Of a DNA stretch of 48,649 bases, positions 1,870 to 37,327 are shown in pieces. The stretch lies in assembly GCA_964565575.1 (NCBI GenBank), contig CAZMFL010000001.1, positions 1 through 48,649 on the forward strand. Reading direction: 5' to 3'. The first letter of the stretch is position 1. Each line of letters starts with the position of its first letter. Both the position numbers and the translations under genes were made by a program. A model generated the notes under the pieces. It was not told the origin of the DNA. It saw nothing but the letters and a program-made list of their open reading frames with translations, and ran no database searches. This DNA comes from an uncultured Candidatus Peribacteria bacterium. GTDB lineage: Bacteria > Patescibacteriota > Gracilibacteria > Absconditabacterales > Absconditicoccaceae.

Positions 1870-2673
1870 ATGAAAAACAAACAAACAAAACCAAAAAGAA
1901 TTTTATCTGTAAGGGGGACCATTTTAACATTACCTACTTTGGATACGATTGAAGGCCCTGCTCTTGTTTTTATTAGCCCAGAAAGCATATTTATAAGCGA
2001 TACATATAAATTAAAAATTCACAAAAAATGTTTATGTGTTGTTGAAAATATTGAAACTGGTAAAACTAATATTAATTTAGAAGACTATTTCATCCCTGTT
2101 TATCTGGATCAAGATAATGGGATTGATATTGATTTGAAAGACATCTCCTATCTTTTTAAAACAACGCCAGAGCTAGAATTCGAAAAGCTCTCATCTGAAG
2201 ATTTTTTACTATTTGAATTCGGTGGAGTCAGAACAAAAAGCGTTCTTTCCCAAGAAGATCTTTACTCAAATTATTCACTCACGTCTCTTTTCGAAGAGTT
2301 ACAATTATGCATCGGAAGTTACGAATATGAGTACATAATTTGTGCAATAGAAAAATCATTGAGAAAAAAAATCAACAGTATTGGTAGTTTAGATCTAGCT
2401 AATCTCAAAAACGTACTTGAAAAAATTGAAAATTTCAAGACACACGATCCAGCCACAAATTACCAAGAAATGCTTGAAGACTTGCAAACATTGATTGAAC
2501 AAAAAATCAAAAAAACAATAAATGAAAGGAAAAACACAAAAAAAGAAAAATTCCCGAAAAAAGAAGACCTTGAACGCGCACTAAAAAAAGCACTCGAAAA
2601 AGAAGACTATGAAAGAGCTAGTCAAATTAGAGATTCGATAATAAAGATAACCGGAAACGCTCAAAAAACATAA
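1870..2673 (+). CDS. Hypothetical protein with C-terminal UVR-like motif (paralogue 1)
   Basis: Intact 267-aa ORF ending in TAA. The C-terminus EDLERALKKALEKEDYERASQIRDSIIKI resembles the UvrB/UvrC (UVR) motif. The N-terminus is similar to the next ORF. Confidence 0.7.
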   Translation: MKNKQTKPKRILSVRGTILTLPTLDTIEGPALVFISPESIFISDTYKLKIHKKCLCVVENIETGKTNINLEDYFIPVYLDQDNGIDIDLKDISYLFKTTPELEFEKLSSEDFLLFEFGGVRTKSVLSQEDLYSNYSLTSLFEELQLCIGSYEYEYIICAIEKSLRKKINSIGSLDLANLKNVLEKIENFKTHDPATNYQEMLEDLQTLIEQKIKKTINERKNTKKEKFPKKEDLERALKKALEKEDYERASQIRDSIIKITGNAQKT

Positions 2674-2677
2674 CATC

Positions 2678-3499
2678 ATGAAAGCAAAAATTGAAGGAAA
2701 AATAATCATTCTACCTACGCTTGCAGATGAACTCCCTATGTTTGATACTATCTATATAAGACAAAGCTCACTAATTATCTTTACAGATGGAGATGTTTAT
2801 ATAGAGCCAAGCACAACAAATTTTATCAAAGATAAAAATTTGCTTGATGGGTTTTCATTGCCTGTGTTTATTGATGAAGAAGGACTGACCATCAAAATGA
2901 AAGATGTTGATTTTGTCTACTACCCGAAACCCGAGGATGCAAAATCGATTTTAAGTGAAGAGGCAATATTTTGCGGAAAAGCAGACCTTTCTGCTATACG
3001 TACAAAAGAAGAATTGTTTTATCATTATTCTTTTGAAAGCTTATTTAAAAAACTTGTTTCTTGTTTGGATGAGGAAGAATATGAAACCATTTCAAATTTT
3101 TTTTTCAAACTTCTGTATGACAAATCCCAAAATGAAAAAGCCACGATCATTTATTCTTGTAGAGAGATGATTCAGTCGACATTAGACAATTTTTTGGGGT
3201 CAATTACAGAGCTTGACGAATACGCTGAGGAATACAAAGATAGATTGGTTGAAATTATGAAATTTTTGTCCAAACTATTGCCGAAAAAGCATTCCCTGAC
3301 CAGAAAATTGGCTGAAGAAAAATTAGAAGAAGGAAAACGACTGTACATAGAAGAGAGGAAAATCAAAGTCAAAAAGCAGCTGTACGAACTCAAAATAAAA
3401 TTTTCTGAAGCGAAAAAAGCGGAAGATTATGAGTCTGTTCAAAAACTTTTTGATGAAATGCATGCGTTAAAAAATGAACTAACAAATATGGGGAAATAA
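2678..3499 (+). CDS. Hypothetical protein with C-terminal UVR-like motif (paralogue 2)
   Basis: Intact 273-aa ORF lying 4 nt after paralogue 1. It shares the ILTLPTL/IIILPTL N-terminal pattern, the YSLTSLFEEL/YSFESLFKKL core and a C-terminal AEDYESVQKLFDEMHALKNEL motif. Confidence 0.7.
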   Translation: MKAKIEGKIIILPTLADELPMFDTIYIRQSSLIIFTDGDVYIEPSTTNFIKDKNLLDGFSLPVFIDEEGLTIKMKDVDFVYYPKPEDAKSILSEEAIFCGKADLSAIRTKEELFYHYSFESLFKKLVSCLDEEEYETISNFFFKLLYDKSQNEKATIIYSCREMIQSTLDNFLGSITELDEYAEEYKDRLVEIMKFLSKLLPKKHSLTRKLAEEKLEEGKRLYIEERKIKVKKQLYELKIKFSEAKKAEDYESVQKLFDEMHALKNELTNMGK

Positions 3500-4191: not shown

Positions 4192-7100
4192 TTATTTTTC
4201 TAGGTTGTCTTTCAATCTTGCAATCATCTGTAACGCTTGCATCGGCGTTATGTTATTTGGATCAAGCGATCCCAAAAGTCTTTTTATTTTCTCCAATGTG
4301 TTTTTGGCTTCTATTGATTCCTGATCGATACTCATCGCGAAAAGAGGCATAGAATCCGGCATCTTGTCGTTGTTTTGATCACCTTGTGAGATAGAGGTAT
4401 TTCAACTATTTTTGGTTTCATACACACGTAAGTATTTTTTGGCTGCCTCGGTGATAACGCTCGGGATACCAGCCAACTTCGCCACATCTATTCCGTATGA
4501 TTTATCTGCTCCTCAACGAATAATTTTTTTCATGAAGACAACATCTTTTTGCGTTTCGTATACTGCAACAGAATAGTTTTTCACTCATGGAAGATTTTTT
4601 TCTAGTTCAATGAGTTCATGATAGTGCGTCGCGAAAAGCGTCTTTGCACCTATATATTGCACGATATATTGTACTATTGCCTGCGCAAGCGCCATACCAT
4701 CATACGTTGATGTGCCACGCCCCAACTCATCCAAGATGATAAATGATTTTTCCGTTGCATTATGCAAAATATTGGACATCTCAATCATCTCTGTCATAAA
4801 TGTGGACTGGTTTTTCGCAATTACATCCCCTGATCCGACACGCGCGAACAATCCATCTACAAGCGATATTTGGGCTGTCTGTGCAGGCACGAATAATCAA
4901 CAATGTGCCATGAGTATAATCAACGCATTTTGTCTTAAATAAGTAGATTTACCACCCATATTTGGGCCAGTAATGATAGCAAGCGTTGTGTCATCGTTCA
5001 CCAAGTCATTTGGTGTAGAGCCATCTTCGATGGCATTTTTTGGAGAGGTACTCTCGCTTATCATATTTTCTGGGATAGTAGAATTACTTTGAAGTGTCGT
5101 TGATTGCAAGATTTCTAAACTTGTTTGCTGTGCGGTTGTTGGTGTCTCTGATAGTGATTTTTCTGCCGATGATCGTTGTGACACCTCTGTGAATGATTGC
5201 TGTTGTATATCGTTGGATGTTTGTAATTTTTCTAAACTTGTTTGCTGTGCGGCTGTCGTCTCTGATAGTCATTTCTCCGCCGATGGTTCTTGTGAAACTC
5301 CAGTGAATGATTGCTGTTGTGTGTCGTTGGTTGATTGCGATTGCGAGCCGTCGGTGACAAATTGTGCTGTCCCTAGTTGTTGTGAAATTCCTGCATATGA
5401 TTGCTGTTGTGAATCGATAGTTGATTGATCTTCCTCGGTCACCGATTGAAAGATTTCTGTTGCGGCAGTTCATCATTGTGCAAATCAATTCTCACCTAGC
5501 ATTCCGCCGGTATCACGACGTTTCCCAATCAATAAATCGTTTGGAATAAAATGTTGATCGTGTGGCAAAAACGCTTCAATAACTGGATGACGCCCACCCA
5601 AAATTTGTATGGATCATGTAGTTGTCATTTCAGGTTTCACATATTTTTTTTCTTTTGCGAAAAGCGCATGGGAAGTATACAAATCAAGCCAAGCGATACC
5701 ATCGGCGAGCTCATGAAATGCTGCGCTAGCAGCCAAAAGCGAAGCTTTTGCATCTTCCAACAACGCTTGTTCAGAGGAACGTAGCTGAAATTGGGCCGAC
5801 AAGACCTTACGTTGCAACTCATCTAAATATATACTTGTATATCTTTGCCCTGTTTTCAATGTTTGACGACGAATCATCTCGCGCTTCGGGTCGCCTTTGA
5901 TACTCCTGGCTTCAAAAGCATCAACATCCTTGGGTGTAACTTCCAAAACATATCATTGATTTGACACATACTTCACTTTTACGTTTGTAATTCAGGTTGC
6001 CTGTACGAGTTCTTGTTGGTACGAGAGCAACAGATTGTCGCTGTGATATGCTATTTTTCTGAGCTCGTCAATCTCTGTGCTGTATCAATCTTGGATATAA
6101 TCAATATCGTCATTGAGTCATTCAACTTTGAGCAGACTTTCCAGATATACAAAATACTCTTTTGTCTTTTCAAGTGCTTGTGACGAAACAAGAGGTTTCA
6201 GGCCGAGAGATCAAGGGTTGCTATCTGTGGGATCTATACCCACCCGAGACCGGTTTCATAGATCTTTGTGGACTAATCCCAACGCATATCTCAATTTCCC
6301 AAATGTCATTGGATTGTTTTTTTTGTACAAGAGCGTTGAGATAATCTTGGGTAGATCGACCATCCTGCGTAAAATCTCTTGGATATTTTTTGCTTCTCAA
6401 AGATGATCAGTATAATGCGAAATCCACGCCTGACGAGTTTGAATTGTTTCTGTGTGTTGTGTCGGATGTAACAATATCTCCCTCATCAACCTCGCTCAAA
6501 GAGCAGTAGAAGTCTGGTCTATCACACCAAGCAAACTATATTTTTTGGTAGATTCATACTGTGATGTAATAATTTCCAGGTTGCGAATAGTCACAGCATC
6601 AAGCATCACGTCATCGGTTTGTGAGTCATATTGTATGCGAAGAAGTGACCTCGCTACTCCTTCTTGAATGTGTTGTAAATAATGCAACAAGAGTCACATT
6701 GCATACTCTCTGCCATCTTCAAGCGCTTTTCCGAAACTAGAAAGTGTTTGTACACCAAACAATCAACTCAAAAAACGCTCCACGTCAACTGGTTTATCGT
6801 AGGTACTTACTAAAATATCTGTTCACTGTGATGTGACGTATGTGCGAATTTCTGTGTTCTGTGGGAAGTCTATATCAACAACAATTTCGCGTGGTTGTAG
6901 TCTAGAAAGATGTCATAGGAGATCTTCAAATGTATGGAAACTTCTTGTATAGTACGAGCCAACAGTCACGTCTCACCACGCACAATGATACGAGTCCATA
7001 TCGCCTCACGTGTAGGTAATTGCGGACAAATAGACAAACTCTTTTTTGCTTTCTTCGATAAATGTCGCAGGCGTGACAATCTGTGTTACTTTACGTTCCA

Positions 7101-7407
7101 CGATCTGCCCAGTTTTCGGTTCACTCATCTGCTCAGCGATAGCGACTTTGTATCCATGAGCGACTAGTCTCGCAATGTACTTGTCTACACTATGAAATGG
7201 CACACCTGCCATTGGAGCTGGATTTTCACTCGTTCTATCTCTTGATGTAAGGGTCAAATCAAGCACTTTGGCAGCAATTTTCGCGTCTTCATTAAATGTT
7301 TCATAAAAATCTCCCATACGAAAAAAAAGAATGCAATCAGGATGTTGCTTCTTCATATCAGTGTACTGTTTCTGCGCTGGGGTTAGCTTCTCACTATCTG
7401 CATTCAT
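4192..7407 (-). CDS. mutS: DNA mismatch repair protein MutS (1071 aa, with large internal insertion)
   Basis: I hand-translated the whole gene. It is one continuous frame from ATG 7407 to TAA 4192..4194, with only TGA interruptions. The N-terminus has [11 protein letters not shown]...PMAGVPFHS, the centre has [16 protein letters not shown], the Walker A is [15 protein letters not shown], and downstream come [14 protein letters not shown] and ATHYHEL. Confidence 0.93.
4990..5520 (-). repeat. In-frame Q/S/T-rich imperfect tandem-repeat insertion within mutS (~175 codons)
   Basis: The DNA is imperfectly repeated with a period of ~110 nt (e.g. ttctaaacttgtttgctgtgcgg... occurs twice). The repeated peptide units are QQQSFT(G/E)VSQ..SAEK(G/S)[12 protein letters not shown](K/I)LQ. 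The insertion lies between [10 protein letters not shown] and [14 protein letters not shown]. Confidence 0.85.
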
Positions 7408-7468
7408 AGATGTGAGTATAGTGTTTCCTTACGACGGTGCAACAGAAAAAAGAGACAGATAATACTAC

Positions 7469-7885
7469 CTAAACACATTTAGACGTTTTTGAGTTATGCG
7501 ATAACTTTAGTAATGGAGAATTTCATCTCAAAGTAGTATTCCACGCAGTGAGTTGTTTGGAAATAGATACCATCAAAATTAGTTTCTCGGTGTACTGGTT
7601 ATGTGATAAAATGCCAACACTATTGCATGCTCTCCAAATTATTTTGATCAACTCTATGTTTTTCTTTGCCTCTACAAGATGCTCAGACTTTTCCTTAGTA
7701 TTTGTACTCAAAGACGCAAGCGATATTTCCACCAAAACATTTAAAGCATAATTTTGCAAGCGCTCTCCAAAGGTATATTTATATTCTTTAGGAAACGAAA
7801 CGACCAACCTAGACAGAATCGTTAGTATTTCAAAACTATCCTGATAGACTGGTAGATGATCATAAGAAACCATCAAAAAATTCAT
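7469..7885 (-). CDS. avd: Four-helix-bundle protein (23S rRNA-IVS / Avd-like family); candidate DGR accessory variability determinant
   Basis: The peptide MNFLMVSYDHLPVYQDSFEILTILSRLVVSFPKEYKYTFGERLQNYALNVLVEISLAS matches the typical N-terminal pattern of this family (VYQ.s..l...i...FPk.eky.l..Ql). The start is ATG 7885 or 7873. The ORF passes the TGA at 7523 and reaches TAG 7469 under code 25. It lies immediately 3' of the template repeat. Confidence 0.7.
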
Positions 7886-7966
7886 AAAATAAAAAGATTC
7901 TCCCACTCTTTTAGAACTCCTGCATGCACAGAATCCAAAAAAAGAGTGAGAGAGCAATCATAGGAG

Positions 7967-8144
7967 TTCTTGAAACAACGAGCAGAGAAACCGTTTGCAC
8001 GGTTGTTGTTATTAGCTGGGTTAATATTGGACGAATTGAAGTTCAAGTTATAGGAGTTCGTTCCATTAGGAGTAGACGACCAGTAGTTGCCGTTTGATCC
8101 CTGATTGTTAACACCAGCGCTAGCGTTGTTGCGGTTACCTGCTA
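7967..8144 (-). repeat. DGR template repeat (TR)
   Basis: The 178-nt block is homologous to 8970..9147 at an offset of 1003 nt. By hand alignment all ~27 mismatches have A in this copy (minus sense) and C, G or T in the other. In the corresponding frame it is rich in AAC/AAT codons and encodes AGNRNNASAGVNNQGSNGNYWSSTPNGTNSYNLNFNSSNINPANNNNRANGFSARCFKN. It is not part of an intact ORF. Confidence 0.9.
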
Positions 8145-8302
8145 CGTTTTGGGTGATGACTGGATTTGTGTTTTACTATCCCTAATAAAACATCTTGTAT
8201 TACTACCACTCCCACAAAAAAAGAAATAATAGCGCATCACTGAATTCCCATTTTTCCGCACGCTCAAATACCTCTACAGCATTTGACTCTGGCGGAGCAA
8301 TA

Positions 8303-8833
8303 TTACAAAATAGGAAATTGCATCTCTTCCGTTTCTATTTTTCTATCTTTTTGGGTAATATTCTCAGCGGTGTGAAAGGATGGGAAATCAAGAGGTGGCA
8401 ATGGGGTCTTCACATTCACATCCAAAAAAGGGAGATCAACATGTTTGATAATACGCATACTTGCTTCATATTTTTGAATTACACCTTTCATCTCATCAAG
8501 CAAGGAAGCATAGACATCGATTGGTATCGTGATTTCAAGCGGTTTTGTTCCAAGGTGATACTGCAGTACAACTGGTCCTGTTTCATGAATTTGGAGAAGG
8601 ACATACGAATAATCTGCTTGTTTCAACAAATCCATATATTTCTCTCCGGCGTTCGCAGGGAATCCCGTCATCCTTGCTCCTCACTGCACTTGCACTTGGA
8701 ATCCAAAGAGGTAACCCAGCAAGACAGCATCTGACTCATACGCTCTGTAAAATCCTCCAACGACAAACAACAATATTCTATTTTTCCGATCTGGATCAGT
8801 CTTGTAGTGGTTTCGATACATCTGTGGTTGCAT
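8303..8833 (-). CDS. Small MutS-domain-I-like protein (176 aa) between VR and TR; candidate DGR accessory gene
   Basis: The ORF runs from ATG 8833 (alternative 8821) to TAA 8303..8305 with one in-frame TGA. The segment ILLFVVGGFYRAYESDAVLLGYLFGFQVQVQGGARMTGFPANAGEKYMDLLKQADYSYVLLQ parallels the MutS mismatch-binding domain seen in the adjacent mutS ([29 protein letters not shown]...[29 protein letters not shown]). Confidence 0.65.
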
Positions 8834-8929
8834 ACAAAGAGTCGCTATGTGCTAAAAAAAATTTCGCGGTTGGATAGTCATTCTCCTCTCTCCTCCGCCT
8901 CTCGCTCACTACAAGCGCGTAAGGATCAA

Positions 8930-8954
8930 GGGGACAAGGGGAAAGGGTCAAGGG
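8930..8954 (+). other. G-quadruplex-type motif (four G-runs) immediately 3' of the VR-bearing gene
   Basis: The plus strand reads GGGG-ACAA-GGGG-AAA-GGG-TCAA-GGG. It is followed on the minus sense by a purine-rich tract (gagcgagaggcggaggagagaggag). The locus is unusually G/C-rich for this AT-rich window. Confidence 0.5.
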
Positions 8955-8959
8955 TTAAA

Positions 8960-10162
8960 CTATGGGGAATTCTTGAAACAACGAGCAGAGAAACCGTTTG
9001 CACGGTAGCCGTAATCAGCTGGGTCAACATCGGACGAATCGAAGCCCAAGATATAGGAGCTCGCTCCATTAGGAGTAGACGACCAGTAGCGGCCGCCTGA
9101 CCCCTGACCGTAAACACCAGCGCTAGCGATGAGGCGGCGACCTGCCATAGGTAATTTAAGTGTATCTCTCAAGAGAAATCATTTATTACTTGCATATATA
9201 GCATCTCCCGAATAGATCTTTACCCGTGCATTATACAATCATTGTCGCTCTGTGCTTGTGGGTATATGATACCCTGTAGGACATGGTCACTGTCCGCCTG
9301 GTAATCGTAGGTTGGGATTCTGAGGTGTCGCCCAGTCATATGGGCTATTTGGTGCTAGAACAAATGTACTACCAGTATATGGTGCTGTAGGGCTTGGCAC
9401 TAGTGTGCTTGTTGTTGCTATTGTAGCAGTTCAGTCTTGATTGGTTCATGCTGTTCCATTCCAGAATCCATAGTTATTCCCTCGTTGATAGTAGTATCCA
9501 TACGAAGCAGATGTTGTTCCAACTTCCGATGCTCACAGGTTTTTATCCATCATCGTGTACACATTTGTTCCATCTGATACGATAGTATGTCCTCATTCGA
9601 AATATACTCATGGTACACTTGTGTCTACAGTTCCCCCTCCTGGCACGATATTGGTTGTTAGTCACTTTCCTACTTTTTGATATGATCCTTGTTTGTCTGA
9701 GTCTATTACCCCCGTACCGTTTGTTGTGTTTCCTTTCTTGGATTCCATTAGTGCAGTAATTGCATATCCTGTTCATGCATCGTTTGTCCAGTATGCGAAT
9801 GAGTCTCCTGTCGCTAGTATTCCTCCTGGTTCCGTTGATATAGCTACCGTTCACTTCCCTGGATCTGTGGGGATGTTTGTTAGGTATGGTGAGATTGCAT
9901 CTGTTACTATTGGTGTTGCTACGCTTATTCATGGTGCGCCTGTCAGTGGTGCTCGTGGATAGGTTGTTCCTTTCTCCTGTGCGTACAGTTCTACTGCACT
10001 TGAGATCTGTCATACCTTTACTATACGCGCAGAATCACTTGCTCTTTCTTTTGCTCCTGTTAATCTAGGGACCAGTACGCCAGCGAGGATTCCGATGATC
10101 ACTACGACAACCAGCATCTCTATCAGGGTAAAAGATTTGCGTTGTGTTTGAAATTTCGTCAT
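8960..10162 (-). CDS. DGR target: type IV pilin-like N-terminus fused to a Fib_succ_major (FISUMP)/C-type-lectin-fold-like C-terminal domain (400 aa)
   Basis: I hand-translated the whole gene. It is a continuous frame from ATG 10162 to TAG 8960..8962 with 15 in-frame TGA. The N-terminus MTKFQTQRKSFTLIEMLVVVVIIGILAGVLVPRLTGAKERASDSARI is a prepilin/GspG-like class III signal plus helix. The C-terminal part has TMMDKNLGA, YGYYYQRGNNYGF, CPTGYHIPTSTE and LKLPMAGRR...YWSST...GFSARC, typical of TIGR02145-type domains that DGRs diversify. Confidence 0.85.
8970..9147 (-). repeat. DGR variable repeat (VR), last ~59 codons of the target gene
   Basis: This is the counterpart of the TR. It encodes AGRRLIASAGVYGQGSGGRYWSSTPNGASSYILGFDSSDVDPADYGYRANGFSARCFKN. 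The 3' ~36 nt (ccgtgcaaacggtttctctgctcgttgtttcaagaa) is identical to the TR, which is IMH-like. Confidence 0.9.
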
Positions 10163-10439: not shown

Positions 10440-11561
10440 CTAGAGTAATAGAGAGAGCCAGTTTTCTGTTGTTATGGTAGAAAATTTTTGTTTCCCATAC
10501 TTTTTTACGAAATCTTCTGGGATAGCGGCATTTTTAGTTCGTTTGCACTCATAACAATCAAGTTTTCCATCATATTCACGGATAAGATCTATTTCTGCTC
10601 ATTGATAGTTTCTCCAAAAATAGAGATTTCCATGTTGTTGGGTATATGTATGCTTTTTAAGATATTCCATAATGACAAAATTTTCCCAAAGTTGTCCTTT
10701 ATCATTTCTTGAATCAAAACCATTAAATTGATTAATTACTGCATTTCTGATTCCTGTATCTAAGAAATAATATTTGCGTTTTTTGGTGATTTCATTTCTC
10801 AGATTACTATTCCATGCTCCAAGAGAAACAAGCACAAATCATTTTTCTAAAATATCTAAATAGCGACTAACTGTTTTAGTGTCTATACCGATTTTTGTTG
10901 CTAGTTCATGAATAGAAACTTCCTGGCCTACTTGAAAAGCAAGTAATTTGAGTAGATCAATAAGATGTCTAGGTGATTTTATCTTTTCCAGAGCAAGAAC
11001 ATCTTTTAGAAGATAAGATTCTACTAGTTCAGTCAATATTTCTTTTTTCTTGGCAAAAGAAGAACTCATAATTACTTCTGGATACGATCAGTAAATTAGA
11101 AACTCCTCTAGATGTTCTTGAAGTTCATATTTGTTATATATCGACAAGAGTTCTTGTTGCGAACAAGGATAAAGCGTAAGAGTTTTCTTTCTGCCTGTGA
11201 GTGGTTCTCAAATATACTGAGAGAGTTCAAATGAAGAAGAACCTGTTGCTATAATTGTTTTTTCTGGAAGATTGTCTATCAGAATTTTTAATCCTGCTCC
11301 TATGTGAGGGATATTTTGTGCTTCATCTATTGCTATAATATCATATCCTTCTGCATATCTCAATATTTGTTCCATATCTCTACTTGAGAAAAGATTTTGA
11401 AGTTTTATGTTTTCTCCTGTATCTAGTTTATATGGTTTGTTACTTGACTCAAGAAAATGTTTGAGAAGAGTGGTTTTACCAGTTCTTCTTGGTCCATATA
11501 AAATCAATACTCTCCCTTTCCAAAAGTATTTTTCTAAGTTTTTATATATTCTTGTAATCAT
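10440..11561 (-). CDS. AAA+ ATPase with C-terminal DUF4143-like region (373 aa)
   Basis: Three ORF-track pieces lie in one frame joined by TGA, and I hand-checked the joins. Walker A is LYGPRRTGKTT and Walker B is IIAIDEAQ. A winged-helix-like segment is HELATKIGIDTKTVSRYLDILEK. The ORF ends in TAG at 10440..10442. Confidence 0.8.
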
Positions 11562-26007: not shown

Positions 26008-26087
26008 CCCCGCCTTTGGCGGGGATTGCCCGAACTATCGATGGTTAGCTAAATCACAACGATAGGACGGGCAAACAACTTCGTTGT
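26008..26087 (+). ncRNA. GC-rich triple-hairpin element in the rpoB-rpoC spacer (copy 1 of a repeated structured element)
   Basis: Hairpin 1 is CCCCGCC-ttt-GGCGGGG. Hairpin 2 is TTGCCCGaaCTATCG-(19 nt)-CGATAGgaCGGGCAA. Hairpin 3 is ACAAC-ttc-GTTGT. No T-run follows. Confidence 0.45.
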
Positions 26088-26126
26088 CTAGGATACAAAA
26101 AATTTTATTATTACTACTCCTCTTTC

Positions 26127-29966
<3,840 letters not shown>

Positions 29967-31912: not shown

Positions 31913-34900
31913 CTATTTTTTGTACACATTCAAGATTTCTGCTAATGTATCTGCTCCTGGAGGGAGGCTATTAAATATGTCTGGATTGTACTTGAGGACA
32001 ACTGCTCCATAATCTTTAAGTGCATTTTGTCTCTCTGTTGATTGTTCCTGTCATTGATACATATCAGCAAACCACGTATTTACATTTGATCTTCTTGTAG
32101 CTAGCAGGCTATCTGATGTTGTACTACGGATATTTCCACCGATGAGAATTCCATTTATAGTAATATCTCATGCATTACACCACTCTTTTGAAAGATCTGT
32201 ATTGTGAGCAGATTTTCTCCAAGATCCAAATCAAGCATCTGATGAAATATCTTCCAGAGAGATAAAGATACCATTTACTTGTTGTTGAGTATTACAACTA
32301 TCTGGTGAAAAGTGAATATTACCATTTTGAGCAATAAACATGCCCTTGTTTCATAAATTCCCCTTTACATTCAATGCGCCTTTAGTGAGGATCAATGTAA
32401 ATGGTTTTGCTGGAGTGGTCGTTTTATCACCAACTGTAATAGTAGCATTCCCATTTTCCGGAGAGAATATATATACCTCTTTATTAGGTACTTTGTAAAC
32501 GGTAACATTCGAACCTTCTTTTGATTTAAATGTTGCTCCATCAGCTTTCACTGCAATTTTTTGATAGTCTTCTATAAGCTTATTAACTGCTGTTGATACT
32601 TCGGTGCCTGGATCATAATTTGTTGTTAAATCAGGCACTCATGTTGTAAATATAGGCGAACCATCTGGGAATTGCAAGGATGAGGTGAGAGTATCTGTTG
32701 CGAAGTCACCAAGTGCACCTCTTGAAACCATATATGGTTTGGTAACGACGAAGTTCATTTGACAAACTCTTTCTGTAGAGTTTGTGGTTGTCTTGGTTGA
32801 TGTGCCATCTAAATTTCACGATGAGTTAACATTACATATTTCATAAGAAGAGACTTTCATATCTATAGAGTGCTCTCCAAGAGCCGAAGCATTAAATATA
32901 AATTTTTTTGCATCAAATCAAGCAGGTGTTGGATACTCTTCAGGTTTATATCACATTGATTTTAATATGCTATCATAAGCAGTATTTATTAATTTGTTTG
33001 TTGTTGTATTGAAACATTCTTGATCAAAATTCAATATTATGTCGTTTTTTGCATTTTGCACTATAAATTCACACATAACAGAATTTCTCACAATTTGAGA
33101 TTTAGAAGGCGCAACAGTTCAAGAAACACAACTTGTAACAAAATCAGTATTATCTAAATCAGTTCATTTTATCTTTGATTCAAGATCCCACCAAAATGGC
33201 AAATATTCATTTGATTGAATTGACGGTGGATCTATGTATCCACAAGTCGGAGCATCTACATTTTCAGGTGCTGCTTTCACTTGACATGGATAGTTTGACT
33301 TAGGTCAATAACAGAATCTTCCTTTCAACGCTCATTGAGTAATAACTGCACCAGAACCAAATCTAAATGGATCATTTGGGTTAGAAAGATTTCATTCATC
33401 ACAAATTTCATATACTCATTGGTTATTCGGTCTATGCACAATTCCATCACCACAATAAAAATTAGTTCATCCTCCACAGTTAACAACACATCAACCTGGA
33501 GAGTATGGTGTTATTTTTGCTGATGCTTCATCATCCTCAGTTCATGGATTCGCTCCTCTATTACATGGGTCAGAATCTATATCTTTTGGATTCTCGCCAA
33601 CAGAAGCTTTACCATTGTATTCACATATCTCAGCATAGTTTGTTCTTTCTACGGTTCCATTGTAAACTGCCTTGAATGTTATAATCAATGAACCCTTTGC
33701 AGGAATTGTTAAATTACTAACCAACAATTGCCTATTACCAGATGAGTACACAGCTGTTGCATTAGTCAACGATGAGTTTACGAGCGTTGAACCTTCTACA
33801 TACTCAAGATCTGCAGGCATATAATCTTTTAGGGAAAAACCAGTTACTCCTACTGTTCAACTATTCGTTACAGTAAGCGTAATTGTAACCTCAGTCGCCT
33901 TTTGCACATTTGGAAGAGTCTTTAGATTGTTAATAGTTTTTTCCAATGAAAGATCAAAATAATCATTTACTGGATTCACTGATGCAAATGATGTGTCATC
34001 TTCATCGTTCCCTGTGCCATTACATGGAATTGAATCTATGTCATATGATTTTGTCGTATCTTGGCCCATGCCATTGTAGTCACATATTTCTGTATAGTTT
34101 GTTCTCGTTACCTCATCAACATATCTTGCTTTGAACGTAAGGGTCATAGATGCTCCCGATTTCAATGTCAATCCTGTCCATATTAATGTGCCAGGAGTAG
34201 CATCACCTGCTGTATTTGAAGTATACTTACTACCACTTGAAGCTTGCACGAAAACGAAACCAGCTGGAAGATAGTCTTTTACTGTGAAGTTAGTTGCTGT
34301 ATCTGGTCATGCATTTGTTACAACCAAAGAGAAATCTATAATATCTCCTGAATGTGCTTGTATAGATTTTTTTCCATTCGCAAGTTTGTTGATTGACAGA
34401 TCGAAGTATGGTTTCGTCGTCGGTGGTATGATAACTCCATTTGATGTATCGTCTTCGTTGTTGCTTGTGCCGTTACATGGGTTTGAGTCTGCGTCATACG
34501 GTTTTGTGCTGTCTTGTCCGTTTCCTGCTCCTACACCATTGTAGTCACATATTTCTGTGTAGTTCGTTTCTCTTCCGTTTGAAATTGGTCATACGTATTT
34601 CACCTTCACTGTTAATACAAATGATCCTACCGCTCCTATATTCAAATCGCTCCATACTATCGTTTTGGTAGTCGCTGTATATGCTCCGTTATTGCTCGCA
34701 GAGACAAACTCTAGTCCCTTTGGTAGATAGTCTTTTACTGTAAATCCATTTACTCCTACTGTTCCACTGTTTGTTACTGTTAGTGTGTAATCAAACTCAT
34801 CACCTATTACTACATTTCTTTCCTTTGGTGTTTTGTTGATTGACAGATCGAAGTATGGTTTCGTCGTCGGTGGTATGATAACTCCATTTGATGTATCGTC

Positions 34901-37300
34901 TTCGTTGTTGCTTGTGCCGTTACATGGGTTTGAGTCTGCGTCATACGGTTTTGTGCTGTCTTGTCCGTTTCCTGCTCCTACACCATTGTAGTCACATATT
35001 TCTGTGTAGTTCGTTTCTCTTCCGTTTGAAATTGGTCATACGTATTTCACCTTCACTGTTAATACAAATGATCCTACCGCTCCTATATTCAAATCGCTCC
35101 ATACTATCGTTTTGGTAGTCGCTGTATATGCTCCGTTATTGCTCGCAGAGACAAACTCTAGTCCCTTTGGTAGATAGTCTTTTACTGTAAATCCATTTAC
35201 TCCTACTGTTCCACTGTTTGTTACTGTTAGTGTGTAATCAAACTCATCACCTATTACTACATTTCTTTCCTTTGGTGTTTTGTTGATTGACAGATCGAAG
35301 TATGAGTTTGTTTTCGTGATGGCGTCATCACAATTATTATTATTGAAATTATTGTCGTCTGTGATACATACTTTATTTAAAAATTCCTCTTTTGGTGCTA
35401 GTGTGCTAGGAATTTTGGCTTTGATTGTGATAGTTCATCTTGCTCCTGGTTGCAATGTTCCAACATTCCAAGTTAGCGTTTGACCATTTACAGTTGGTTG
35501 TCCAACATTCGGTGTAGATGTTGCAGAGTTAACTATATATTCTGTTTTTGCAGGAAGCGTATCAGTCACTGTTCCTGGTCGTGCAACTGTTCCACTATTT
35601 CCATAGTTTATCGTATATGTTAGCGTATCTCCAGCTACCGCAACTGCTTTATCAACTTCTTTTGTTGATCGAAGATCAACACATCACATGTAAAACTCTG
35701 CCCATGAAGGGTTGTTTTCAAGCAATGTATTTGGCTCGTTCGTTGCAGAAATTGTCAAATCATTATGTATTTTGAGTGCACTACAAACTGGCGTAGAAGC
35801 ACCAATTTTCACATATATTGTGATGGTACCACCCGCGTTTGGCGCAAGTGTTCCAATATTCCATGTAAGTTTGTTTCCATTTACAATTGGTTGTCCAATA
35901 TCTGGACTAGAAACAGAAGAATTTGCAATATATGTCACTTGCGTAGGAAGTGTGTCAGTAACTACTACTCCATTCGCCGTTCCAGCTCCTTGATTTTTGT
36001 ATGTTAATGTATACTTCACTGTTTGTCCAGGCATATATGAACCTGAAGCCACTTCAACTTTCTTGGTTGTAAGCACATCAGGATTTTCACACGATGTGGT
36101 GAAAGTTGCCGTTGAGTTGTTATTCGATGTATTTGTTTCACCATCTTTTGTGTCTGGCGCTATCGTTGCATCATTCTTGAACGGCGCACAAAATGGAGCA
36201 ATATTTAATTTTACAGAAAATGTAATTTCATTGTAGTACCCTGCTGGCATATTTCCCATATTCCAACGAAGTGTATTTGCTGTCGCATTGTATGTTGGTT
36301 CTAATGCTGTTCCATTAGAAAATCTAGTTGATCCAGCAGTATACGTAACACCGGCAGGAAGCTGATCAGCGATAATAACATTTGTCGCGGTTCCAGTACC
36401 AATATTTCTTACGATAAGTTTATATACGACAGTATCTCCTGTTACATATCATATAGTATTTCAAACTACTGATTTCACAATTGATACATCAGGAATAGCT
36501 GGTGCTAATATAGTTGTACAAGTCGCTGAACACAGTGCTCACGGTTTGCCATTTTGTGTTCCAAGGTCACATTGCTCACCCTTATTCATAGAATTTGTTG
36601 TCCCATTCCAAATGTTGTATCCATATGCATCAGTTGTTGCTACTCAAGCTGGCAATGCGCTTCCATTATCAACGATACCATCGCCACACCAAGAAACATA
36701 ATAGTTTGCACACTCGTTTCAGGATTGTCTCTCGCTTTCTGCTATTGCATAATTAGTTATGCTCCATTGTGTGGAAGCACCTATTTGCCCATTTATTATT
36801 GGATAATAAAGCCCCGCGCTTGTATTTGAGCTACCTTGTATCAATGGTACTCTAGAAATATTGTAAACTATTTGCATTGCTAGTAAAGTCGCAGTTGGTT
36901 GAGAGCCAACTGTTGCAGTAGTACCGGGAACGTTTTGTGTAGCCACTACTTCATAAACGTTCGCTGGTTTACTATTTGATGCCAGTGCAAAAGATTCATT
37001 TCCTCACTGAATTGCAAATCCAGCATACGGATTATAAATTGTAATAAGACTCTTACTTGGAGAAATAATCCAACGAAAAGCAGAACTGCTATAAAAAGTA
37101 TCATACGGATAAAATGTGCTTCACTTATAGTAACGATAATTACTAAACTTAGTACCATCATCCTGACAGGCCTGTGGAGCCAAAGATACAGTTGAGGTTT
37201 GTAAAGGTATATACGAAGCAGCAAATGTAGACGATACAAATGACATTGCTCCTAGAAGCACGCTCATTCATAAATACCTTTTTAGTGATTGCATTTTCAT
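31913..37300 (-). CDS. Giant secreted repeat protein (1795 aa): signal peptide, Cys-rich CGDG repeats, multiple DUF11-type (TIGR01451-like) beta-sandwich repeats
   Basis: I hand-translated the full length. It is a single frame from ATG 37300 to TAG 31913..31915 with only TGA interruptions. The signal-like N-terminus is MKMQSLKRYLGMSVLLGAMSFVSSTFA/AS. Two CGDGIV...CD motifs resemble the myxococcal Cys-rich repeat. Repeated modules follow the pattern V..GD...Y.ltv.N.G...a..v.v.D.LP.g..fv and are followed by YTEICDYNG..., D.DS.PCNG and NEDDTS linkers. Confidence 0.85.
34386..35309 (-). repeat. Perfect tandem direct duplication, 2 x 447 bp (+ ~30 bp of a third unit), in frame (149 codons per unit)
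   Basis: 34386..34832 and 34833..35279 are identical as far as I compared them. The spurious plus-strand ORFs 34441..34671 and 34888..35118 have identical translations. Identity continues to ~35309 and then diverges. Confidence 0.9.
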
Positions 37301-37327
37301 TTTTTTCTAAAAGAAAGAATAAAGTAA

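What the first reader, a model, noticed from the sequence alone, without database searches (positions are those of the whole stretch)
7967..9147. Template/variable repeat pair with strictly adenine-specific mismatches, the DGR hallmark
Seen: 7967..8144 and 8970..9147 (minus sense) are 178-nt homologues.
- By hand alignment, about 27 mismatches all have A in the 7967..8144 copy and C, G or T in the other.
- There are no mismatches at template C, G or T inside the block.
- The A-rich copy reads as runs of AAC/AAT codons and encodes AGNRNNASAGVNNQGSNGNYWSSTPNGTNSYNLNFNSSNINPANNNNRANGFSARCFKN. It is not in an intact ORF.
- The diversified copy encodes AGRRLIASAGVYGQGSGGRYWSSTPNGASSYILGFDSSDVDPADYGYRANGFSARCFKN, the C-terminus of a 400-aa ORF.
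- The last ~36 nt are identical (IMH-like) and include an AACCGT-gcaa-ACGGTT hairpin.
Established: A-to-N substitution between TR and VR at AAY codons is diagnostic of mutagenic retrohoming by diversity-generating retroelements, as in the Bordetella phage BPP-1 paradigm.
Basis: partly seen in the sequence, partly recalled or inferred. Interest (0 to 1): 0.9.

Follow-up and report, generated by a model that had tools for sequence, protein, structure and literature searches.

The report
DGR repeat pair missing its RT
This is a genuine diversity-generating retroelement that rewrites the tip of a pilus-like surface protein in an uncultured Peribacteria (CPR) bacterium, but its own reverse transcriptase gene has been cleanly deleted, so it either borrows an enzyme encoded elsewhere or is a recently frozen relic.

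Summary
TR (7967-8144) and VR (8970-9147) align without gaps, and all 28 mismatches have A in the TR (P~9e-15). The genome reads UGA as Gly (code 25), which makes the VR the C-terminus of a 400-aa protein with a type IV pilin N-terminus. Between VR and TR lies a MutS-domain-I accessory gene (MSL). After the TR lies avd. This is the known MSL-type ('Architecture D') DGR.

The window holds no reverse transcriptase. Relatives (L001, L002, L004) carry target-MSL-TR-avd-RT. Here about 1 kb is deleted, leaving the last ~14 RT codons as a scar (7472-7520). The same scar occurs in four other contigs from four other samples, so it is not an assembly artefact.

Among RT-less alleles the scar drifts neutrally (~16%), yet avd and MSL stay under strong purifying selection. 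The window's VR carries all 14 substitutions and the 3-nt deletion that are specific to its own TR. A near-identical strain has a VR differing at 32 sites, all TR-A positions.

Most likely the cassette is still served by an RT in trans (~0.55). The rival is a recently orphaned relic with recombination (~0.38). It is a known kind of system and of moderate interest.

The parts
8960..10162 (-). Target gene: 400 aa under code 25, with 14 in-frame UGA=Gly codons. It has a type IV pilin-like N-terminus and a C-terminal FISUMP/DUF8237-like module whose last ~60 residues are the VR.
   Evidence: ORF under code 25. N_methyl PF07963 scores 29.4 bits against a cut-off of 21.2, and Fib_succ_major is weak at 19.2 bits. 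TIGR02532 scores 22.1 against 16.3, with GspG/ComGC-like similarity. A family profile matches solved pilins over residues 4-126 at E 1e-13 to 1e-15. Homologues carry PF26707 DUF8237.
8966..9147 (-). Variable repeat (VR), at the 3' end of the target ORF. The TAG stop is at 8960-8962.
   Evidence: there are 28 differences from the TR, all at TR adenines. The VR of strain L005 differs from it at 32 sites, all TR-A positions.
8850..8959 (-). Conserved element 3' of the VR: TTTAACCCTTGACCCTTTCCCCTTGTCCCCTTGATCCTT (8921-8959), then a purine-rich stretch and a T-run. It is a candidate target-recognition and/or terminator region.
   Evidence: It is conserved after all six VR copies examined and absent after the TRs. 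The two VRs of L001 are 119/120 identical here. No significant fold was found (z -1.16) and no covariation, so the function is inferred only.
8303..8833 (-). MSL accessory gene: 176 aa, a MutS domain I-like protein with one UGA=Gly codon.
   Evidence: PF01624 MutS_I scores 28 bits against a cut-off of 20.6. It is 84% identical to the MSL of the complete cassette L001. It is under purifying selection among RT-less alleles: 20 syn / 3 nonsyn against L011, p=5e-11. MSL is defined as a DGR accessory gene in PMC5758913.
7963..8144 (-). Template repeat (TR). It is non-coding and A-rich, with 56 A in 178 nt and 19 AAY codons in the VR frame.
   Evidence: It is also hit by the N-terminal extensions of RT gene calls from other genomes, which read through their own TRs.
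7874..7962 (-). TR-avd spacer, a candidate 3' part of the DGR RNA (priming region) and/or the avd promoter and RBS.
   Evidence: There are 2/89 differences between the window and L011, where the neutral scar shows 13/79. P(<=2)=5e-5. The function is inferred by analogy to the BPP-1 spacer region (own knowledge).
7469..7873 (-). avd accessory gene: 134 aa including the stop at 7469-7471. Its last 12 codons are read from the RT scar.
   Evidence: PF22296 bAvd scores 42.2 bits against a cut-off of 40. NF033474 DivGenRetAVD scores 35 bits, below its cut-off. It is 91% identical to the L001 Avd. Against L011 it shows 0 nonsyn / 8 syn, and against L003 3 / 9.
7472..7520 (-). Scar of the deleted reverse transcriptase gene: the last ~14 codons of the RT ORF, read out of frame, joined to the avd 3' end.
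   Evidence: L004 1-468 matches window 7998-7530 and L004 1488-5913 matches window 7520-3029. L004 469-1487, which is the RT ORF, is missing here. The junction shows microhomology, ATTACAAAA / ACTATAAAA. The same scar occurs in L003, L011 and L012.

Best explanation
The two blocks are the template repeat and variable repeat of an MSL-type ('Architecture D') diversity-generating retroelement. The host is a Peribacteria/Gracilibacteria (CPR) genome that reads UGA as glycine.

The gene order on the minus strand is: pilin-like target (VR at its C-terminus), MSL, TR, avd.

Mechanism, inferred from the family: the TR region is transcribed, and an RT/Avd complex makes cDNA in which template adenines are miscopied. 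The cDNA then replaces the VR, re-randomising up to 19 AAY codons in the C-terminal lectin-like module of a modular type IV pilin. That module presumably forms the binding surface an episymbiotic cell uses to contact hosts or ligands.

What is unusual is shown directly: the cassette's own RT gene has been removed by a ~1-kb deletion that leaves a 3' scar.

Three lines of evidence bear on what happened next. The accessory genes and the TR-avd spacer have stayed under purifying selection in RT-less lineages while the scar drifted neutrally. The VR carries every lineage-specific scaffold change of its own TR. A near-identical strain has a differently randomised VR. From these I infer that homing continued after the deletion, using a reverse transcriptase encoded elsewhere in the genome, in trans.
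For: DGR identity.
- 28 of 28 mismatches fall at TR adenines, P=8.7e-15.
- There is AAY codon bias, with A at codon positions 1 and 2.
- bAvd and MutS_I domains flank the TR.
- Complete orthologous cassettes, target-MSL-TR-avd-RT, occur in L001, L002 and L004. Their RVT_1 RTs carry IGNLTSQ, and their TR/VR pairs differ only at A.

RT deleted.
- There is no YxDD motif in six frames and no RVT Pfam hit in any ORF.
- tblastn with the L001 RT, and with 120 DGR RTs, finds no RT domain.
- Homology to L001 stops at the RT start.
- The L004 comparison shows a 1,019-nt gap and a scar.
- The same scar appears in four other contigs from four other runs: L003, L011, L012 and, for the flank, L005.

Function after the deletion.
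- Among RT-less alleles, synonymous divergence is 0.11-0.18 and the scar shows 13/79 differences.
- Over the same comparisons, avd shows 0-3 nonsyn against 8-10 syn, and MSL 3 nonsyn against 20 syn (p from 1e-4 to 5e-11).
- The TR-avd spacer shows 2/89 differences.
- The window's TR has 14 unambiguous non-A substitutions and a 3-nt deletion relative to both other RT-less TRs and the RT+ outgroup. All are present in its VR.
- If the pair had been frozen since the common ancestor of the RT-less alleles, 6-12 non-A TR/VR mismatches would be expected. None is seen inside the block, giving P(0) from 2e-3 to 5e-6.
- The target gene is 100% identical to L005 over about 680 nt (window 9832-9148) up to the VR. 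The VRs then differ at 32 TR-A sites only.

Trans action is normal in this family. The single TR of L001 also writes a remote target ~52 kb away. Experimentally, avd, TR and brt work in trans from a plasmid (PMC5758913).
Against: - No RT could be shown for this genome. Only one 48.6-kb contig is available, and the only close relatives of the cognate RT in the 5.8-billion-protein search are those of L001 and L004.
- The population looks like one in which the element is being lost. An RT+ allele exists (L004), RT-less alleles exist (window, L003, L011/L012), and L005 has no MSL-TR-avd at all next to a window-type VR. One RT-less allele, L011, has a UGA>UAA nonsense mutation in MSL.
- Recombination is evident. 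There is a 100%-identical tract next to regions at 88-94%, and the TR is a divergence hot-spot. The tree logic ('deletion first, TR change and homing later') could therefore be broken if a fresh VR-MSL-TR segment was imported from an RT+ strain.
- The window-type scaffold is also present in the VR of L005, so it is not private to this lineage.
- A heterologous RT would have to recognise this cassette's RNA and Avd. That has not been tested.
Confidence: 0.55

Rival explanations
1. Orphaned relic. The pair is a genuine DGR TR/VR, but the element is dead in this genome. After the RT deletion no more homing occurs, the VR is frozen, and the cassette is on its way to complete loss, as in strain L005. 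On this view the perfect non-A match and the A-only differences between strains reflect homing in RT+ ancestors or donors. Homologous recombination then shuffled the VR-MSL-TR segment and the RT-less junction together.
For: - There is no RT in the window.
- Presence/absence polymorphism runs from RT+ (L004) through RT-less (window, L003, L011/L012) to no cassette (L005), and there is an MSL fragment next to a third target in L006.
- L011 has a nonsense codon in MSL.
- Mosaic identity indicates recombination.
- The RT+ allele comes from a run adjacent to one that holds window-identical sequence, SRR8925813 against SRR8925812.
- More than half of candidate DGRs in a GenBank survey were judged inactivated (PMC5758913).
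- In Thiohalocapsa the same ambiguity was resolved partly by structural variants with an intact RT (PMC10907252).
Against: - Purifying selection on avd, MSL and the TR-avd spacer persists among RT-less alleles that have diverged by about 0.11-0.18 at neutral sites, including right beside the neutrally drifting scar.
- No non-A TR/VR mismatches are seen where 6-12 are expected.
- Importing both TR and VR, but not the 95-98%-identical MSL and avd flanks, needs two precisely placed recombination patches. A single larger patch would have to have left no discontinuity.
Confidence: 0.38
2. The absence of the RT is an assembly or binning artefact. On this view the real genome has target-MSL-TR-avd-RT-mutS, and the contig collapsed or skipped the RT.
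For: The window is a metagenome-assembled contig. RT+ alleles of the same locus exist in related samples.
Against: The identical junction, with its own accumulated substitutions, is found in independently assembled contigs from SRR29243429, SRR27676564 and SRR27676576. No repeat flanks the RT that could cause a collapse, only 4-9 nt of microhomology. The scar has diverged at the neutral rate between these contigs, which an artefact would not produce.
Confidence: 0.02
3. The pair is not a DGR. On this view it is an ordinary paralogue pair or a gene-conversion tract between two copies of a C-terminal domain, with compositional drift making one copy A-rich.
For: Target-like paralogues are common in these genomes. 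There are three in L001's contig and three in the Peribacteria MAG.
Against: - The probability of 28/28 mismatches at A by chance is 8.7e-15.
- The A-rich copy has no upstream coding partner and sits between MSL and avd.
- Orthologous loci carry the RT.
- The same A-only rule holds in three other TR/VR sets.
Confidence: 0.01

Closest known systems
MSL-containing DGRs ('Architecture D' of Wu et al. 2018, NAR 46:11; includes the Legionella pneumophila DGR)
   Same: A small MutS-domain-I-like accessory protein (176 aa here; the paper gives 112-283 aa) occurs together with avd and without HRDC. There is a TR/VR pair with adenine-specific differences and a C-terminal VR.
   Different: Here the RT gene is deleted. 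The host is a code-25 CPR bacterium and the target is a type IV pilin-like protein. The paper states that B3 is the usual CPR architecture, so an MSL-type cassette in this lineage is a less common combination.
Bordetella phage BPP-1 DGR (mtd-avd-TR-brt), the mechanistic paradigm
   Same: Adenine mutagenesis from TR to VR, dependence on Avd, AAY codons in the TR, and an invariant 3' end of the repeat with a TR/VR difference at its edge (IMH / IMH*-like).
   Different: The gene order is target-MSL-TR-avd-(RT). There is an extra MSL gene. The target is cellular and pilin-like rather than a phage tail fibre. No supported hairpin or cruciform lies 3' of the VR; instead there is a conserved C/T-rich sequence element. 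The RT is absent in cis.
Incomplete DGR loci of Thiohalocapsa sp. PB-PSB1 (Dore et al. 2024, PNAS; PMC10907252)
   Same: [quoted passage not shown] These are explained either by trans activity of components encoded elsewhere or by structural variants in the population that keep an intact RT. The same two readings compete here.
   Different: Here the RT-less locus keeps its own TR, avd and MSL, so only the enzyme would be borrowed. The evidence for continued function is evolutionary (selection and TR/VR co-evolution across strains) rather than read-level diversity.
Multi-target and remote-target DGRs
   Same: In the sister genome L001 one TR writes both the adjacent VR and a second VR ~52 kb away. 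The two VRs share a nearly identical 120-nt 3' element. Remote targets and trans complementation are documented (PMC5758913).
   Different: In those cases TR and RT stay together and only the target is remote. Here TR and RT would be separated.
Modular type IV pilins (for example PilB of Streptococcus sanguinis, PMC8179133; title and abstract only, seen)
   Same: A pilin N-terminal domain is followed by an extra C-terminal functional module. A paralogue in L001's genome lies next to a PilB/T2SSE-type ATPase and small pilin-sized genes.
   Different: The C-terminal module here is a DGR-diversified FISUMP/DUF8237-type domain. No pilus assembly or adhesion has been shown.

Membership tests
Diversity-generating retroelement (DGR) | A TR/VR repeat pair whose differences are (nearly) all at adenines of the template copy | tested here: met
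   28/28 mismatches fall at TR-A in 178 nt, P=8.7e-15. A single non-A difference lies at the 3' edge, outside the block.
Diversity-generating retroelement (DGR) | A DGR-clade reverse transcriptase (RVT_1 with the [ILV]GxxxSQ motif) encoded in the cassette | tested here: not met
   There is no RT anywhere in the 48.6-kb window, only a 3' scar. The feature is met in the orthologous cassettes L001, L004 and L002 (IGNLTSQ...YVDD). The locus is therefore DGR-derived but is not a complete DGR.
Diversity-generating retroelement (DGR) | Accessory variability determinant (Avd) next to the TR | tested here: met
   PF22296 bAvd scores 42.2 bits against a cut-off of 40. It is 91% identical to the Avd of the complete cassette L001.
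Diversity-generating retroelement (DGR) | VR at the C-terminal end of a target ORF, in a variation-tolerant ligand-binding fold (C-type lectin or Ig) | tested here: inconclusive
   The position is met: the VR ends 3 nt before the stop codon. The fold is not established. There are only weak FISUMP matches (19-21 bits, below cut-off) and DUF8237 in homologues. The AlphaFold model has pLDDT 55 and the Foldseek search gave nothing.
Diversity-generating retroelement (DGR) | TR adenines concentrated in AAY codons at positions 1 and 2, so that mutagenesis cannot create stop codons | tested here: met
   19 of 58 TR codons are AAY and 17 of them are changed in the VR. A at codon positions 1/2/3 = 24/23/6.
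Diversity-generating retroelement (DGR) | An IMH in the VR against an IMH* in the TR, with a target-recognition structure 3' of the VR | tested here: inconclusive
   There is an invariant ~30-nt 3' block whose adenines are never changed in any VR examined. One non-A TR/VR difference sits at the edge in the window, in L001 and in L002. There is a conserved 3' element but no supported hairpin.
Diversity-generating retroelement (DGR) | Evidence of actual diversification: VR variants that differ only at TR-adenine positions | tested here: met
   VR_win and VR_L005b differ at 32 sites, all TR-A, next to about 680 nt (window 9832-9148) of 100% identical flank. L001 VR1 and VR2 differ at 26 sites, all TR-A. 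This is a comparison between strains, not within-sample read data.
MSL-type DGR (Architecture D, Wu et al. 2018) | A small MutS-like (domain I) accessory gene in the cassette, co-occurring with avd and without HRDC | tested here: met
   PF01624 MutS_I scores 28 bits against a cut-off of 20.6, and the protein is 176 aa. Avd is present. No HRDC hit appears in any ORF scanned. The definition is taken from PMC5758913.
Type IV pilin / pseudopilin | A prepilin N-terminal cleavage/methylation motif followed by a hydrophobic alpha-1 helix | tested here: met
   PF07963 scores 29.4 against 21.2 and TIGR02532 scores 22.1 against 16.3. The sequence is KSFTLIEMLVVVVIIGILAG. The family profile matches solved pilins and GspG at E 1e-13 to 1e-15 over residues 4-126.
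Type IV pilin / pseudopilin | Association with pilus assembly machinery and incorporation into a filament | not testable with these tools
   The only evidence is that a paralogue in L001's genome lies beside a T2SSE/PilB-type ATPase. No pilus genes lie near the target in the window.

The most novel reading that the evidence does not exclude
The locus is a functional 'satellite' DGR cassette. It keeps its own template, Avd and MSL but has dispensed with its reverse transcriptase, and is maintained by selection because an RT encoded at another locus services it. On this view DGR components in these tiny genomes are modular and shareable, one RT can drive several independent TR/Avd sets, and what they diversify is the tip module of type IV pilin-like proteins used for host contact.
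Probability: 0.5. Interest if true: 0.6.

Novelty: new member of a known kind. Interest (0 to 1): 0.42.

Why it matters
DGRs are already known to be abundant in CPR bacteria, so finding another one is not news in itself. Two points are worth keeping.

First, the diversified protein is a modular type IV pilin-like protein. I found no paper in the searchable library that links DGRs to type IV pilins. Pili are the structures through which CPR cells are thought to contact hosts, so this gives a concrete candidate for the rapidly evolving recognition surface.

Second, the locus and its relatives form a natural series: RT+, RT-less, and cassette-less alleles. In this series avd, MSL and a non-coding spacer remain constrained after loss of the cis RT. 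If an RT in trans is confirmed, it would show that TR/Avd/MSL sets can be serviced by a shared enzyme. That matters for DGR detection pipelines, which start from the RT and would miss this cassette. It also matters for engineering multi-template DGR systems. If no trans RT is found, the series is a clean example of stepwise DGR decay.

Tried and rejected
1. Table-11 gene calls gave fragmented ORFs and were abandoned after showing UGA=Gly.
2. The search for an RT in the window was negative by every route: a YxDD motif scan, Pfam on all large ORFs, tblastn with the L001 RT, and tblastn with 120 DGR RTs.
3. The attempt to retrieve the window's own record failed, so its sister contigs (and with them any trans RT) could not be reached. 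Only Logan contigs with window-identical genes were found.
4. The metagenome contigs pattern scan returned nothing.
5. My first argument was that the window's TR changes arose after the split from L003, which would prove homing after the deletion. It had to be weakened when the VR of L005 turned out to share the window-type scaffold and recombination became evident. I kept it only in the more careful form, together with the selection tests.
6. A hairpin or cruciform 3' of the VR is not supported: z=-1.16 and 0 compensatory pairs.
7. The structure prediction of the target had a mean pLDDT of 54.8, and Foldseek against the PDB gave no hit with E<0.9.
8. Rfam found no family in the window.
9. The promoter and terminator scans were not above shuffled expectation in any informative way.
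Full report
**1. The observation**

Read on the minus strand, 7967..8144 and 8970..9147 align without gaps. There are 28 mismatches in 178 positions, and every one has A in the 7967..8144 copy (A>G 19, A>T 6, A>C 3). The template copy has 56 A in 178 bases, so the chance of this is 8.7e-15. The repeat finder reports the same pair independently.

In the VR reading frame the template has 19 AAY codons out of 58, and 17 of them are changed. Its adenines sit at codon positions 1 and 2 (24 and 23, against 6 at position 3). One non-A difference (C/T at 7966/8969) lies just beyond the block.

**2. Genetic code and gene content**

Table-11 ORFs are fragmented. Reading UGA as sense raises the summed length of ORFs of 100 aa or more from 11,053 to 29,845 aa and restores rpoB, rpoC, mutS and others.

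In RpoC, in-frame UGA aligns with conserved glycines. At one MSL position the window has UGA where a distant homologue has GGT. The code is therefore 25. The nearest named relatives are Candidatus Peribacteria MAGs.

Under code 25 the minus strand reads as follows.
- **Target gene, 10162-8960 (400 aa).** It has a prepilin N-terminal methylation motif and weak FISUMP similarity. A profile of the family matches solved type IV pilins and GspG over residues 4-126 at E 1e-13 to 1e-15.
- **VR, 9147-8966,** at the target's C-terminus.
- **MSL, 8833-8303,** a MutS-domain-I protein.
- **TR, 8144-7963.**
- **avd, 7873-7469,** matching bAvd above the Pfam cut-off.
- **mutS,** the genuine mismatch-repair gene, from 7407.

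MSL is a described DGR accessory gene that always co-occurs with avd ('Architecture D'; PMC5758913).

**3. The reverse transcriptase is missing**

Nothing RT-like exists in the window. There is no YxDD motif in six frames and no RVT domain in any ORF. tblastn under code 25 finds no hit with the cognate RT or with 120 DGR RTs. The only hits are to the TR itself, from RT gene calls in other genomes that read through their own TRs.

The MSL protein led to L001, which is 78% identical in DNA. Its order is target-MSL-TR-avd-RT, and homology to the window stops exactly at the RT start. A more distant Peribacteria contig, L002, has the same order. Both have A-only TR/VR differences.

L004 is ~91% identical to the window and shows TR-avd-RT-mutS, which is the window's own neighbourhood. 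Relative to it, the window lacks L004 469-1487, and the last ~14 RT codons survive at 7472-7520 fused to the end of avd. The junction has short microhomology.

The same scar is present in L003, L011 and L012, which come from three further sequencing runs. In L011 and L012 it is followed by a different downstream gene. The deletion is therefore real, shared by descent, and not recent.

**4. Is the RT-less cassette still in use?**

*Internal yardstick.* Between RT-less alleles the scar and its flank differ at 13/79 sites, and synonymous divergence in avd and MSL is 0.11-0.18. That sets the neutral level.

*Constraint.* Against this level, several parts of the cassette have stayed constrained since the deletion.
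- avd shows 0, 3 and 3.5 non-synonymous changes against 8, 9 and 10.5 synonymous changes in the three pairwise comparisons.
- MSL shows 3 non-synonymous against 20 synonymous (window against L011). P values against neutrality run from 1e-4 to 5e-11.
- The non-coding TR-avd spacer shows 2/89 differences (P=5e-5).

*TR/VR co-evolution.* The window's TR has 14 unambiguous non-A substitutions and a 3-nt deletion relative to both other RT-less TRs and the RT+ outgroup. The window's VR carries all of them. If the pair had been frozen since the common ancestor of the RT-less alleles, 6-12 non-A mismatches would be expected. None is observed, giving P(0) from 2e-3 to 5e-6.

The edge mismatch at 7966/8969 has counterparts at the same place in L001 and L002. 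It is better read as an IMH/IMH*-type difference than as drift.

*Recent homing.* In the Peribacteria MAG locus L005, the target gene is 100% identical to the window over about 680 nt (window 9832-9148) up to the VR. The VR then differs at 32 sites, all TR-adenine positions, and keeps the window-type scaffold. Homing in this population is therefore more recent than any point substitution in that tract.

*Precedent for trans action.* In L001's genome one TR writes a second VR ~52 kb away. Experimentally, avd, TR and brt work in trans (PMC5758913).

**5. Evidence pointing the other way**

- L005 has no MSL-TR-avd at all between the target and mutS. L006 has a third target with only an MSL fragment. 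L011 has a UGA>UAA nonsense codon in MSL. Together with the RT+ allele L004, this looks like stepwise loss.
- Identity along the locus is mosaic, and the TR is a divergence hot-spot (75-86%, against 94-99% in the flanks). Recombination could therefore have joined a freshly written VR-MSL-TR segment to an old RT-less junction. That would undercut the ordering argument.
- No RT for this genome could be found. The window is the whole NCBI contig and its sister contigs were not retrievable.
- The same ambiguity, trans activity against structural variants that keep an intact RT, has been described for incomplete DGR loci in Thiohalocapsa (PMC10907252).

I put the trans-RT reading at about 0.55 and the orphaned relic at about 0.38. 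Assembly artefact and non-DGR explanations are at about 0.02 and 0.01.

**6. Other anatomy**

Every VR of this family is followed by the stop codon and then a conserved TAACCCTTGACCCTTTCCCCTTGTCCCCTTGAYCCTT element (window 8921-8959). A purine-rich stretch and a T-run come next. The TRs lack this element. It is a plausible target-recognition or terminator element, but it has no significant fold and no covariation.

The invariant 3' block is ~30 nt rather than 36, because GCAAAC is mutated in VR_L005b.

The fold of the diversified module is unresolved. The AlphaFold model has pLDDT 55 and there was no Foldseek match.

**7. Comparison with known systems, and novelty**

In mechanism and parts this is an MSL-type DGR. 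It fails one defining feature of a complete DGR, an RT in the cassette, so I file it as a DGR-derived, RT-deleted cassette of a known architecture.

DGRs in CPR bacteria, MSL, remote targets and incomplete loci are all documented. What I did not find in the searchable literature is a type IV pilin-like DGR target, or evolutionary evidence that avd and MSL stay constrained after loss of the cis RT.

Verdict: a new member of a known kind, with interest of about 0.4.

Noticed in passing
whole window; e.g. rpoC 26049-29963, MSL codon at 8681-8683: The genome uses genetic code 25 (UGA = Gly). UGA aligns with conserved Gly in RpoC, and with GGT in a distant MSL homologue. Public protein databases appear to hold these proteins translated with UGA = Trp, since they show 97% identity to my translation and the family consensus has W at those columns.
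   Followed up: yes
window 5101-5337 (within mutS 4195-7407, minus strand): MutS carries a ~200-aa Q/S/T-rich low-complexity insert between its core domains. It is built partly from a 114-nt unit repeated 2.1 times at 81% identity. The insert length differs between relatives: 1071 aa here against 1049 aa in L004.
   Followed up: partly
window 34385-35309 (within the 1797-aa ORF 31916-37306, minus strand): There is a 447-nt tandem duplication (2.1 copies, 99% identical) inside a very large, probably surface-exposed, repeat-domain protein. It is either a recent duplication or a collapse-prone region of the assembly.
   Followed up: no
window 8921-8959, and the equivalent positions after the VRs in L001, L005, L006 and L010: A conserved C/T-rich element with CCCTTG(A/T)C-type repeats follows every VR of this target family and is absent after the TRs. 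In L006 the VR end plus the start of the element is duplicated about 70 nt apart.
   Followed up: partly
L011:173-230 (MSL codon 51): One RT-less allele has UGA (Gly) mutated to UAA, a premature stop in MSL, although the rest of MSL shows 20 synonymous against 3 non-synonymous differences from the window. An in-frame ATG lies 4 codons downstream of the stop, so a C-terminal 122-aa product may still be made.
   Followed up: partly
window ~7447-7451: The right-hand boundary of the cassette behaves like a module edge. Homology to L011 and L012 ends here, with a different downstream gene beyond it. Homology to L005, which lacks MSL-TR-avd, resumes here.
   Followed up: partly
window 10443-11561 (minus strand): The gene upstream of the target is a DUF4143/AAA_14 ATPase. 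In L001 and L005 the upstream gene is instead a ComF-like phosphoribosyltransferase-type gene (g333). The upstream flank has therefore also been rearranged.
   Followed up: no
window 8740-8760 (MSL residues ~25-32, GGFYRAYE): MSL keeps the phenylalanine of the MutS/MSH6 mismatch-binding F-x-E motif but has Arg in place of Glu (GGFYRAY against GKFYELY in MSH6).
   Followed up: no
L009:4782-9170: In L001's genome a non-diversified paralogue of the target, with no TR match, lies next to a T2SSE/PilB-type ATPase and a row of small genes. This is consistent with a type IV pilus or pseudopilus gene cluster.
   Followed up: partly
window 1870-2673 and 2678-3499 (plus strand): Two adjacent paralogous genes of 267 and 273 aa contain no UGA codons. 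The first ends in a UvrB/UvrC (UVR) motif. An identical copy of the second is present in Logan runs SRR8925812 and SRR11845636.
   Followed up: no
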